Assembly (NCBI GenBank): GCA_050246815.1
Contig: JBFWVI010000060.1
Span: 1-15,961, forward strand
Direction: 5' to 3'
Length of the DNA stretch: 15,961 bases
Source of the DNA: Bdellovibrionales bacterium
GTDB taxonomy: Bacteria; Bdellovibrionota; Bdellovibrionia; Bdellovibrionales; UBA1609
Shown here: piece by piece, positions 9,001-15,961 of the stretch
Numbering within the stretch: the first letter of the stretch is position 1
Layout of the letters: every line of letters starts with the position of its first letter
Position numbers: made by a program

Positions 9001-12000
9001 CGCGTCAGCATTTTCAAGTGGCCATGGTTGATGGCCGATGGGTCGCCACCGATTTGAATAGCGCCAACGGCATGATGTACAACGGCCAAGCTCACAGCCA
9101 GTTGGTTCTGGAATCCGGTATGGTGCTTGAAGTGGGCCCACTTCAATTTCGATTCGAATTTTCCACCTTGCACCAAAAACCCGAGGCACAAACTTTGCGT
9201 TCGCATGAAAGTGCTTACCCAACTTTAAACAACGCAGTTAAGCCTCATGTGCCGCCAGCCGTACACGCGCCTAGGGCGGCCTTCGCACCGCCGCGTCCGG
9301 TGAATTTCAGAAATGTGCGTGGTCTTAAGTTAAGCCCGGCTTGGTTTGAAAAAAGCCCCGAACACAGTCGCATTCTTAAACGCGAAAGTGGCTGCGCCGC
9401 CTTGTCGCTAAACACCATCTCGCCGCAAGTCGCGCGAGCGCCGGCGCAAACACGAGTGTTCGAAGTTTTTTTAACTTGGAAGGACCAGGTTTATGACTCA
9501 AGACTTTATTTCGCAGGCGACAATATCAGCATTGGCACTGATACCGATGATCTGTATGCACCAAACTTAAAGGGCTCATTTTTGCTTGGTCGATTTGATG
9601 GCCAGCACGCCGACATTTATTTAAGCAAGGGGGCCATGGGCACTGTTTACCGCGGCAATCAGCGCCAGAACACTCTTGAGCAGCTGTTAACTGGAGAATT
9701 GATCCCCCGTCGTGGCAAAGGTTATTCGCTTTCTCTAAGTCCTAGCGATCGTTGTGAAATCGAATTAGGCTCCAATTTAAAATTGCACGCCCGTTATGCA
9801 ACTGCACCACGTCAACTTTCGAAAACTTTGGCCCGCGAACCTGATCACCTGATGCGCAAATCCCTGACATACTCAGGATCTGTGCACTTGGCGTTTTTAC
9901 TTTTTGCTCTTTTGATGGCTCCGGCGCAAACCATTCCGAAAGTGAAACACTTACCCCCACGTGTGGCAAAACTTCTGACTCCCAAGGAAGCACCGGTTGA
10001 AACTCCAAAACCCAAAGAGGCCGCCCCACCACCTGAACCTCTGAAGCAGGCCAAAGAAGAGCCACCTAAAAAACGAATCGAGCCCAAACGCCCACGACCA
10101 CAACCCAAAAAAGTTGTGATCCGCACCAACGAGAAAATGAAAGTGATCAATCGGCTGCCCAAAGTTGCCATTCAAAAAACCGTTGACGCGGCCAAACCTC
10201 CGCCGGACATCAGGCAGCTGGGTGCCTTGGCGGCCCTGGGCGCTTTGGGCACACCAACCGTAAGCGACACCAAAAATCTGCCCGTTGCCATCAATGTCAA
10301 CGCCAATGCGGGTGGGCAAACTTCGCTCTCCACCACCGGCGTGATCGGCGCGCTGAAAGCCAAAGGCGGCAAACTAGCCGCAGGCGGATCCCCTGGAGTT
10401 AAAACCACAGGTAAAGGTTTTGGCTCAGGCAGTGAGTATGGAGTGCAGGGACTCAAGGGAGTGGCTGGCAATCGCGGCATCGCGGCCGCCGTGATCGGCT
10501 CGCCCAAACTGATGACGATTGACCGCACCGAAGGGCTCACGCAAAAACAGGTGATGGACGTGGTCAAGCAGCATGTCGGTAAAATTCAGCAATGTTACGA
10601 ACGCTCGCTTCTTTCAAAGCCGAATCTGGCTGGGCGAGTCGAATATGAATGGGAAATCAGCCCCGTTGGCTTGGTCAAATGGATCAAGGTTAAGCGCAGT
10701 GATCTTTCTGAAGCGGACATCTTGAATAATTGCATTTCCGCCATCTTCAGGAAGATGAAATTTCCTGTCGCCAGCAATGGCGAAACAACCAAACCCACCA
10801 TTGGTTTCCCTTTCGGCAGATTGTGACCATTGAACACAGTCGTTTTACTCGCAGAGTCAAGATTACCGCTGGACTAAATTATGAGACCCGCCGCACAATA
10901 TTCCAATGTCGCGATCAAAACGTAAATTAAAAAATTTAATCCTAAGACCCTATTTGCAATTTGGTATCATTTTGCAGGTCGTATCATTGGTGTTGACCTC
11001 TTGTGGCGCGACATTGGCATTTTCGTGGCTATTTTTCTACAGAAACCGTCTGGCACTAATTATTCAAGCTGAAGGTGGAAATGAGAATTGGTATCTTTAT
11101 GTGGTAACTGGGGCGACCCTCATTGTCATAGGAATCATTTCAATTTTCGTCACGCTTTTAATCACCCACCGCATAGTTGGCCCCATGGTCGCCATACATA
11201 GACAGCTAGATTCACTTATCGACGGAGACTTTAGCAACGAAGTACGGCTTAGAAAACATGATGAATTTGCGGACGTAGCTGAAAAGGTGAATTTACTGAC
11301 GCGCAAGTTGCGTGGACAGGGCAAAACCGACTAGTACGCCTGCTGTAGTTCCGGATGGGAACAAAAATGATCAGCTTTATAATTAATCTAGATGTGACTC
11401 CAGTTTTTTTATTTTCTTTCTGAACCTGTCTTGGCGATCGGCTAAGTCTTGGGTTGCCGAAACCAAAGGCGCTATTAGCTGAGCGTAAGACACCGTGCAA
11501 TACTCTGTAGCACAATTCACTGCCGCGCTCAGCTCAGGAACAGAAGCAATTTCTTGGGCAATTAAGCCAACCTGCCGCTTATCGGGCATTTTAATAAGCC
11601 GATAGGTGTAGGCGTTTATGGACTTAAACTGCGTCGCCTTAAACGATAAGGGCGCAATCGCTGCCTTAAGTCGCCGATCTGAAAGATTTTGCCATGCCGA
11701 CGTACCCCCGGCCGTACCATTCACCCAAAAGGCATAATCATTGGCAGGGCGCGCATCGTCACCACCAATGCGCACATCAGTTCGACTCACGCCCCCAGAA
11801 ATCATGTGGTCAATAATAAAAGTGCTTGCAACGTTACTGCCGCCAAGCTCGAGAGTTTGGTTGCTGTTAGTTGGGCGAAAGCTCCAAGCTGAAGTCGCAC
11901 TACTTAGGTTTAAGAAACTTGTGCCGTCTGTACTTTTGATGGCGAAGCGATAAGGAGTGACTTCATTCAAAGCATACCCAACAGTAAGTTGGCGGCTGTC

Positions 12001-15000: not shown

Positions 15001-15961
15001 TGAGAGTATTGCCAGAGATCAAACGGAGAGCTGCCACACTTAGTAATAGCCTGATCGGTAATATTGCGGGTCACAAGCACTATGGAATTTCTTTGAACAG
15101 TGACATCCCGGCCCATTTGACTGTCCCAGCGGGACAAATCCAGTTGTATTTGCAGAAAACCCCGTTCGGATGGGGCAGCAGCGTCTAAAGGCCGAAAGTC
15201 GGTCAGCCGTATGGCGCTGAAGCGAACACTATTCTGGCCCACAATTCGGTCAACTTCAAATTGCCGCAATCCGTCTGGATTTAAGAGAAAATTTAAATTG
15301 ACCGGAAAGGCCGCGGTTACGGTCGTTCTTAGCGCCGAAGTACAATTATTGGTATTCGAGATAAAATGTATAAATTCACGATAAAGCTCCTCGGCTGCAT
15401 TTTGGCTTTCTGCAGACTGGCTTAGTTTGGTCGAATCAACGGCGAAGGTGGCAATAACAACGGTCAGCAGCCCAACGATGAGGGCTGATAAAGCGAGCTC
15501 TACAATGGTAAACCCGTTTTTTTTGTTTCTAAACATCCATCCCACGCACTACGGCCTAAATTGTCTAATATTTTTTGTACGACCTCACCAAATTATTACA
15601 ATTTTCAATTATGATCATACTAATTGGCTCAAAATAGGATTGTCGTGGCAATTAACACTCATCAGAGCCCCCTCGTCGCAGACAGACGCTCACAATCGAT
15701 TCGTAGAAAATACGGCGCTCTACTTTAGAACTTTACCCAAAACCCTATATAGCCATTGGTCCAGTTGTGATTATGAAGCTAGCTCGATGGTTTTGAATCA
15801 ACATAAAATAGATGTACAGGTCACTGGGGAGATCAAAACTTATGTTACAAAAGCTGCTTCAACACTACAACGAAGGCGGATTTTTCATGCACTTGATTCT
15901 GCTCACTTCGTTTGTGGGTATAGGAATCATCATTGAACGCATGAAGGTGTTGTCAGCCGCC

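What a model noticed while it worked through the whole genome (the two positions that open the first line are those of the whole stretch)
11383..15536. Three tandem type IV pilin-S74 chaperone fusion proteins: a trimeric fibre built on pilin stems
Three adjacent paralogous genes (g02643, g02642, g02641; 457-468 aa, 23-27% identical) each join a type IV prepilin N-terminus and pilin-like head to a beta-rich stretch and a C-terminal Peptidase_S74 intramolecular-chaperone domain with its SD-R-LK self-cleavage site. I read them as three minor pilins that the S74 domains zip into one heterotrimeric tail-fibre-like tip, so that a phage-type adhesive fibre is mounted directly on the type IV pilus that Bdellovibrio-like predators need to enter prey. 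That would be a new pilus-tip architecture and would give the unknown anchor for MAT-like fibres.
Evidence so far: Pfam: N_methyl 1-26 in g02642 (E 7e-7), Peptidase_S74 in all three (E 1e-7 to 2e-17). N-termini GFTLIEILVSIALVAAG / GFTIVELALSALIVGLL / (degenerate) GVSSIALILTISLIVMVLL; cleavage motifs ASDARLK, ASDLRLK, LSDRRLK at ~349-370. The same trio stands in tandem in another genus of the family (G049:C180, three ORFs of 494/524/490 aa: GYSLVEVMVVV.., GFSLIEAMVVV.., GYSLIELLVVV.., each with SD[MIA]RLK at 365-392; call 89). In 1.8 billion representatives about 10 full-length relatives among the best 150; alignment of 14: invariant C65 and C167 (pilin-type disulfide), S349-D350-R352-L353-K354; G8 in >=90%. 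AF2 with that alignment: residues 10-170 at pLDDT 78-90 = 50-residue N-terminal helix packed on a [...]
(Added by a program. Inside this text positions count along the whole contig: contig position 1 is position 1 of the stretch shown here. "Call 12" and the like, gene names such as g00115 and contig names such as C1 are that model's own, and its searches are not shown. The text may have been shortened before it was handed on; [...] marks where a part breaks off. The agent that wrote the report below was given it as the finding of a first reader that could run no searches.)

Follow-up and report, generated by a model that had tools for sequence, protein, structure and literature searches.

The report
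Pilin trio with self-cleaving spike chaperones
A Bdellovibrio-like bacterium carries a small swappable gene block of three pilus-type proteins that each end in the self-removing folding helper of phage tail fibres; they probably build a short three-chain sticky spike on a pilus tip, a design listed in a database survey in 2021 but never studied.

Summary
Observation confirmed: three translationally coupled genes (457, 463, 468 aa) each join a class III prepilin leader, a pilin head (AF2 pLDDT >90; best structural matches are pilins, Z 5-6), a ~180-200 aa beta-rich stretch and an S74 chaperone with SDxxxK. The fusion is not new: Raynaud 2021 counted 29 N_methyl-S74 proteins but called them peptidases, and trimeric tip pilins (CofB/TcpB, GspIJK) are known. 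This scan also noted the fusion on five other genomes. New here: the trio plus a small HAMP gene is a 4.96-kb strain-variable insertion in a gliding operon (empty site in two genus relatives and in a co-occurring strain). The family spans the phylum (52 pilin-S74 genes in 31 of 82 genomes fetched). It occurs mostly as single genes, but tandem groups are mostly trios (15 trios, 6 pairs), which arose separately. Best reading: a short (~8 nm) S74-folded trimeric spike capping a type IV filament. A heterotrimer is slightly favoured over three homotrimers; neither is shown. The proteins lack the MAT N-domain, so they do not reveal the MAT anchor, and no link to prey entry is shown.

The parts
10818..15778 (.). 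Strain-variable 4.96-kb cassette (HAMP gene + pilin-S74 trio) inserted between gltG-like and tolQ/aglR-like genes of a gliding operon; ends approximate
   Evidence: A contig in run X2 joins 10817 to 15779; gltG is followed directly by the tolQ-like gene in G312 and G313; GC3 0.43-0.45 against a genome median of 0.57 and 5th percentile of 0.47
14163..15536 (-). g1 (g02643), 457 aa: leader to G8|F9 with Glu5, pilin head 9-170, beta-rich spike 171-348, S74 chaperone from S349
12779..14170 (-). g2 (g02642), 463 aa: G6|F7 with Glu5, head to ~165, spike to 348, S74 from S349
11383..12789 (-). g3 (g02641), 468 aa: G5|V6 without Glu5 (atypical leader), head to ~170, spike to 369, S74 from S370
15027..15512 (-). 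g1 pilin domain: 50-residue helix on a beta-sheet, C65/C167
   Evidence: AF2 pLDDT 86-96 over residues 11-170; VIA matches to GspK, EpsI, PilA, XcpV at Z 5.5-5.6
14331..14492 (-). g1 S74 domain start (SDLRLK; predicted self-cleavage before S349)
   Evidence: structure match to MyRF ICA Z 9.1, rmsd 2.6, 112 aligned
12983..13126 (-). g2 S74 domain start (SDARLK)
11518..11682 (-). g3 S74 domain start (SDRRLK)
10906..11334 (+). 142-aa two-hydrophobic-segment + HAMP-like protein without output domain, part of the cassette, convergent on the trio
   Evidence: HAMP E 0.0012, under cut-off; Atlas clusters of stand-alone HAMP proteins, score 0.98; homologues beside or fused to pilin-family genes

Best explanation
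The three genes are an exchangeable tip cassette for a type IV filament, most likely the type IVa pilus. Each prepilin is exported by Sec and clipped by the prepilin peptidase, and stays in the inner membrane by its first helix. In the periplasm the S74 domains of one g1, one g2 and one g3 chain associate, zip the beta-rich stretches into an intertwined triple beta-helix and cut themselves off at the SDxxxK serine. The product is a ~340-365-residue-per-chain heterotrimer: three pilin stems carrying a short (~8 nm) spike. It primes filament assembly, with Glu5-less g3 as first subunit, and ends up at the tip, where the spike binds a surface ligand (prey or other cell surface). Shown: domain anatomy, intact motifs, fold of head and chaperone, cassette nature. 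From established S74 and pilin biology: trimerisation, self-cleavage, leader processing. Inferred: tip location, 1:1:1 make-up, which machine, adhesion.
For: Pilin fold of two heads: the top 7 VIA rows for g3 are all pilins or pseudopilins (Z 6.0-4.1), and g1 behaves alike. A family profile hits the MAT tips Bd2133 and Bd3182, MyRF and phage fibres. The MAT/MyRF capping-loop motif follows each head. SDxxxK is kept in 51 of 52 pilin-S74 genes. The genome has a prepilin peptidase, 8 T2SSE-family ATPase matches, 4 secretins and PilA. For 1:1:1: (a) translational coupling; (b) among 22 tandem groups in other genomes, 15 are trios, 6 pairs and 1 a four; (c) the pattern 'two Glu5 + one without' recurs in 4 of 5 other all-S74 trios (three of them one genus) and in three other minor-pilin trios of this genome; (d) g1-like and g2-like orthologues stay distinct and share contig lengths in two other records; (e) mature lengths are matched (340/342/363) despite 25-29% identity, and 5% of random triples of singles are as close. 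Precedent: GspIJK heterotrimer and CofB/TcpB homotrimer (PMC8179133, PMC6048534, PMC13533445).
Against: Most family members stand alone: 86 of 108 groups are single genes, and 29 of these carry S74, so homotrimers must work. There are three S74 pairs. One all-S74 trio has Glu5 in all three genes (L033). Two-of-three acidic +5 residues occur in 7 of 13 trios (one genus counted once), against about 0.40 expected from singles (46 of 86), which is not significant. Loci were picked from top hits, 13 of those and several because several hits lay together. All three heads are paralogues of one family, and g3's head resembles GspI-type more than GspK, so they are not I/J/K orthologues. Head Z scores of 5-6 are middling. 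The spike has no confident model (pLDDT 44-68). No assembly genes lie in the cassette, and there is no experimental evidence.
Confidence: 0.42

Rival explanations
1. Same mechanism, but each gene makes its own homotrimeric tip (CofB/TcpB-like), or the chains mix freely; the trio is a small repertoire of alternative adhesive tips made by local duplication.
For: 29 single pilin-S74 genes and 3 S74 pairs. Solved S74 proteins matched here are homotrimers (PMC10769870). Trios in G317 and G267 are independent local expansions. Only 27 of 52 pilin-S74 genes have Glu5, so its lack is common in singles too.
Against: Excess of trios over pairs (15 vs 6); coupled genes with matched lengths; g1 and g2 types kept as distinct co-occurring orthologues.
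Confidence: 0.32
2. The trimer is made as described but rides on another machine (T2SS pseudopilus or Tad), or is never polymerised and is released or held in the envelope as a stand-alone spike.
For: The best head matches are T2SS pseudopilins XcpV, EpsI and GspI. The genome has a T2SS operon and several secretins and ATPases. The cassette holds no machine genes.
Against: The T2SS operon has its own GspG-K set. The leaders are G|FxxxE type IVa/T2SS-like, and Pfam found no Tad pilin family in the three proteins at E 0.1. An adhesive spike is of little use in the periplasm (inference).
Confidence: 0.17
3. The S74 module is a peptidase displayed on the pilus to cut outside substrates, as the 2021 survey suggested for this architecture.
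For: Stated in PMC8179133 (passages), from the InterPro label only.
Against: The catalytic serine is the first residue of the domain and the domain matches intramolecular chaperones (MyRF ICA Z 9.1, K1F 3gw6 Z 7.5, T5 4uw8 Z 6.9). In Bd3182 it cuts only itself, and S782A blocks this (PMC10769870).
Confidence: 0.04
4. A passenger island without current function.
For: Strain-variable, low GC3; g3's leader is atypical.
Against: Three intact, coupled frames with all catalytic and Cys residues kept at 25-29% identity; intact orthologues elsewhere.
Confidence: 0.05

Closest known systems
Modular type IV pilins, architecture IPR012902-IPR030392 (Raynaud et al. 2021, PMC8179133)
   Same: Identical domain pair; 29 proteins, sixth most frequent architecture, plus 8 with IPR008640 in between.
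   Different: Only counted, and read as peptidase activity. In the passages, section 9 and supplement searches I saw no mention of trimerisation, spike, tandem trios or Bdellovibrio.
CofB / TcpB, homotrimeric type IVb tip pilins (PMC6048534, PMC5207764)
   Same: Pilin stem plus C-terminal beta-rich domains that trimerise and initiate the pilus; similar size.
   Different: One gene, homotrimer, H-type lectin cap, no self-cleaving chaperone; head match is weak (CofB Z 3.7, TcpB Z 3.4).
GspIJK / PilIJK heterotrimeric tip complexes (PMC13533445, PMC5207764)
   Same: Three syntenic minor pilins, one without Glu5.
   Different: I, J and K are different proteins joined through their heads; here three paralogues of one family, each with a spike and S74.
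MAT fibres of Bdellovibrio bacteriovorus (Caulton et al. 2024, PMC10769870)
   Same: Triple beta-helix with capping-loop motif, S74 or non-S74 ends, conserved base with variable tip; profile hits 8ond and 8ojn.
   Different: All 21 MATs start with a signal peptide and a ~130-aa beta-rich domain; here a pilin replaces it, and the spike is ~180-200 aa rather than ~1,000. No 'pilin' in the main text or in the two readable supplements.
Phage tail fibre / MyRF intramolecular chaperones (S74)
   Same: SDxxxK dyad, fold and position.
   Different: Not in a phage; the retained part is membrane-anchored through a pilin helix.

Membership tests
Type IV pilin | Class III signal peptide (G, then hydrophobic tract) | tested here: met
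   g2 over the Pfam cut-off, g1 borderline, g3 by eye and by family profile only
Type IV pilin | Long alpha-1 helix on a beta-sheet head | tested here: met
   AF2 models of g1 and g3, pLDDT >90; top structural rows are pilins, Z 5-6
Type IV pilin | Processed by prepilin peptidase and built into a filament | not testable with these tools
   Peptidase gene present; processing not shown
S74 intramolecular chaperone | SDxxxK Ser-Lys dyad at the domain start | tested here: met
   All three; 51 of 52 in the family
S74 intramolecular chaperone | Fold of the chaperone domain | tested here: met
   MyRF ICA Z 9.1, rmsd 2.6, 112 aligned; Foldseek E 3e-5
S74 intramolecular chaperone | Trimerisation and self-cleavage | not testable with these tools
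   Needs protein work
MAT fibres | Signal peptide followed by the conserved ~130-aa beta-rich N-domain | tested here: not met
   A profile of five MAT-type N-termini hits only C52:6449-9991 in this genome, not the trio; the pilin profile does not hit those N-termini
MAT fibres | Triple beta-helix with capping-loop motif, S74 end | tested here: inconclusive
   Motif and profile hits present; spike model low confidence, Bd3182 Z 4.3
GspIJK / PilIJK tip complex | Three syntenic minor pilins, one without Glu5 | tested here: met
   +5 residues E, E, A
GspIJK / PilIJK tip complex | Subunits are I, J and K orthologues | tested here: not met
   All three are paralogues of one family; no T2SSI/J/K or PilX Pfam hit at E 0.1
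CofB/TcpB/PilV type IVb tip pilins | CofB pilin domain or Shufflon_N head | tested here: inconclusive
   No Pfam hit; Atlas leads 0.80-0.81 only; Z 3.4-3.7
Modular pilins IPR012902-IPR030392 | N_methyl plus S74 in one chain | tested here: met
   Formally g2; g1 and g3 by homology

The most novel reading that the evidence does not exclude
Bdellovibrionota use swappable three-gene cassettes in which self-cleaving phage-type chaperones enforce a 1:1:1 asymmetric triple beta-helix on three pilin stems. This is a pilus initiation complex licensed by chaperone self-cleavage rather than by head-to-head I/J/K contacts, and it works as a strain-specific prey-recognition tip with a small HAMP membrane protein as accessory.
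Probability: 0.25. Interest if true: 0.8.

Novelty: new variant of a known kind. Interest (0 to 1): 0.5.

Why it matters
The tip of the pilus that Bdellovibrio needs for invasion (PMC13689555, passage) is undescribed in what I read. A phylum-wide family of pilins with MAT-like spikes gives concrete candidates and corrects the 'peptidase' reading of a catalogued architecture. A heterotrimeric S74 beta-helix would be unusual among solved S74 proteins and is directly testable by co-expression. The cassette's presence or absence between strains offers a natural handle on prey or surface specificity.

Tried and rejected
Complex prediction of the three spike+S74 parts: no verdict (score 0.65, but 0.53 with one chain replaced by an unrelated protein); not used either way. 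Sequencing runs: no RNA holder listed; not used. PilY1 search: none found, but no control genome rang, so uninformative. Full-length profile search was swamped by S74 proteins; g3 residues 1-360 found only itself among 6,951 candidates. Loci for the closest orthologues were not found in the metagenome or genome collections; viral hits are mostly S74-region matches and none covers the pilin head. Foldseek gave nothing at E<=0.001 for the head. No promoter or terminator excess (13 vs 8.5+-3.1; 5 vs 5.7); no convincing terminal repeats or target duplication. The careful tree did not finish and the S74 tree failed; only the quick tree is cited. A functional link to the gliding genes was rejected: opposite strand, insertion absent in relatives, and no gltG/gltC/TPR/OMP homologue at E 1e-5 in the 87 loci then held. 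Literature searches: Bdellovibrio+S74+fibre, 1 paper; pilin+intramolecular chaperone+tail fiber+type IV pil, 0; prepilin/S74/tail fiber, 20 of 47 listed; modular pilin/S74/IPR030392/endosialidase, 16 of 19 listed; MYRF+heterotrimer+ICA domain, 0. None showed a study of pilin-S74 proteins beyond the 2021 count; subscription papers are not covered, and one Caulton supplement (scans) was unreadable.

Full report
Observation. The window is contig C60 of a 3.4-Mb, 99%-complete genome. Three minus-strand ORFs, g1 14163-15536, g2 12779-14170 and g3 11383-12789 (457, 463, 468 aa), overlap by 8 and 11 nt. All carry Pfam Peptidase_S74, with SDxxxK at S349, S349 and S370, and they are the only three S74 matches in the genome. 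Leaders are G|FTIVE, G|FTLIE and G|VSSIA; N_methyl passes the cut-off for g2, is borderline for g1 and misses g3. Identity is 20-29% by method.

Anatomy. AlphaFold2 with a 66-row alignment gives g1 a confident head (residues 11-170, pLDDT 86-96), a confident chaperone (351-450, >=90) and an unresolved middle (44-68). The chaperone matches MyRF ICA (Z 9.1, rmsd 2.6, 112 aligned), K1F 3gw6 (7.5) and T5 4uw8 (6.9). The head matches GspK, EpsI, S. sanguinis PilA and XcpV at Z 5.5-5.6. The g3 head alone (pLDDT 92) has pilins in its top seven rows, XcpV first (Z 6.0, rmsd 2.8, 84 aligned). These Z values are middling, but leader, helix, Cys pair and ranking agree. A 15-row family profile hits the MAT tips Bd2133 (E 7e-15) and Bd3182 (1e-7), MyRF, phage fibres and pilins. 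The V-G-I-G-x-x-x-P capping motif starts right after each head. Bd3182's 135-residue tip is 60 A high and 40 A wide (PMC10769870), so 180-200 residues mean a spike of about 8-9 nm (inference), not a long fibre.

Context. The + strand holds a gliding-type operon (OMP_myx, GltC-like, TPR, GltG-like). In same-genus G312 and G313 gltG is followed within about 100 nt by TolQ/TolR-like genes. Here the tolQ-like gene starts at 15842 and runs into contig C42 (127-nt overlap). A contig in run X1 spans 10354-15961, so the junction is real, and a contig in run X2 joins 10817 to 15779, an empty site in a co-occurring strain (both runs may be the source of this DNA, one study). GC3 of the four cassette genes is 0.43-0.45 against a median of 0.57. 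The unit is therefore a strain-variable 4.96-kb cassette, the HAMP gene plus the trio, and the gliding neighbourhood is probably incidental. The genome has PilA, a T2SS operon with its own pseudopilins, 8 ATPase and 4 secretin matches and a prepilin peptidase, plus three further minor-pilin trios, each with two Glu5 subunits and one without.

Family. A head profile matches 322 of 384 genomes of the order at E<=1e-6 (the profile also picks up ordinary pilins through the first helix alone) and 63 of 301 phylum genomes at E<=1e-18. In 108 loci from 82 genomes, chosen from top hits, I found 52 pilin+S74 genes in 31 genomes and 97 head-bearing genes without S74 in 51; SDxxxK is kept in 51 of 52 and Glu5 in 27 of 52. 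Spike length in single genes varies widely (mature lengths 221-625). This is the MAT logic, a fixed base with variable tips, but with a pilin as base. Several single genes sit beside canonical MAT-type genes (L031, L035, L056). A named member, P0138, is annotated only as 'tail fiber domain-containing protein' of a Bdellovibrio species.

Hetero- or homotrimer. Of 108 groups outside this genome (own loci and one duplicate locus dropped), 86 are singles, 6 pairs, 15 trios and 1 a four; 29 singles carry S74. Singles imply that homotrimers work. The excess of trios over pairs suggests selection for three, though loci were not sampled at random and three trios come from one genus. True orthologues exist: P0121 groups with g1 (96) and P0154 with g2 (99). 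P0121/P0154 and P0122/P0234 share contig lengths (103,233 and 14,412), which suggests but does not show adjacency; no g3 orthologue was found. Four of five other all-S74 trios have two acidic +5 residues and one non-acidic, as here, but over all trios the pattern (7 of 13) does not exceed expectation (about 0.40). Lack of Glu5 in one subunit marks the first subunit of a filament (PMC5207764). I put the heterotrimer slightly ahead.

What is known. Raynaud 2021 (PMC8179133; passages, section 9 and supplement searches) lists IPR012902-IPR030392 with 29 proteins and reads it as peptidase activity. CofB forms a homotrimeric tip (PMC6048534, passages); PilIJK heterotrimers license assembly (PMC13533445, passages). 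Caulton 2024 (PMC10769870; passages, outline, discussion, two of three supplements) defines MATs by an N-domain whose partner is unknown. The trio lacks that domain, while the genome has one canonical MAT on C52, so the MAT anchor question is untouched. Passages of PMC12075869, the Tad preprint 10.64898/2026.07.08.737194 and the review PMC13689555 show no S74 mention. Whether this organism is predatory is not shown. After finding the Raynaud paper I saw that this scan had noted the fusion on five other genomes and two of the other trios in this genome; these notes are not independent support.

Verdict. Real and correctly described; a new variant of a known kind. The fusion is catalogued but misread and unstudied. 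The added value is the chaperone-spike mechanism, the recurrence of trios, the strain-variable cassette and the associated HAMP protein. Interest 0.5.

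Noticed in passing
window 10906-11334; L051, L064, L178, L202, L216, L224, L225; fused in L055 and P0131: A small hydrophobic + HAMP-only protein travels with these pilins: 8 of 11 homologues found in fetched loci lie within 2.5 kb of, or are fused in frame upstream of, a pilin-family gene (6 of the 11 came from loci fetched for pilins or from this genome, 2 of 5 from loci fetched for the HAMP gene). Fusion would let the prepilin peptidase split the two. Function unknown.
   Followed up: partly
G000 C8:8637-12135, C1:24895-27868, C1:79825-83900 (L178, L176, L177): Three more minor-pilin trios in this genome, each with one large Glu5-less subunit and two Glu5 subunits, none beside assembly genes.
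   Followed up: partly
G000 C52:6449-9991: The genome's only match to a MAT-type N-domain profile, about 1,180 aa, without S74.
   Followed up: no
L185:5858-6463, L190:1428-2030, L191:1427-2029: In one genus the S74 pilin trio has a ~200-aa non-pilin gene inserted between the second and third gene; no NCBIfam hit for the two tested.
   Followed up: partly
L229/L230 (G562:C1 596000-622000): Two neighbouring groups of very large pilin-family proteins (812-1,608 aa), none with Glu5 or S74.
   Followed up: no
P0189, P0201, P0019: Pilin-S74 proteins with only about 45-50 residues between head and cleavage site: a trimerising cap with almost no spike.
   Followed up: no
window 2713-3309 and 1839-2675: A 198-aa tyrosine recombinase (catalytic domain only) and a divergent HTH protein upstream of the gliding operon, 7.5 kb from the cassette; no link shown.
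   Followed up: no
window 3-1694 (-): A 564-aa ORF cut by the contig end, with a lipoprotein-like start and no Pfam or NCBIfam hit.
   Followed up: no
window 15427-15936 (+): A 169-aa frame overlapping g1's start and the tolQ-like gene; no Pfam hit, probably not a gene.
   Followed up: partly
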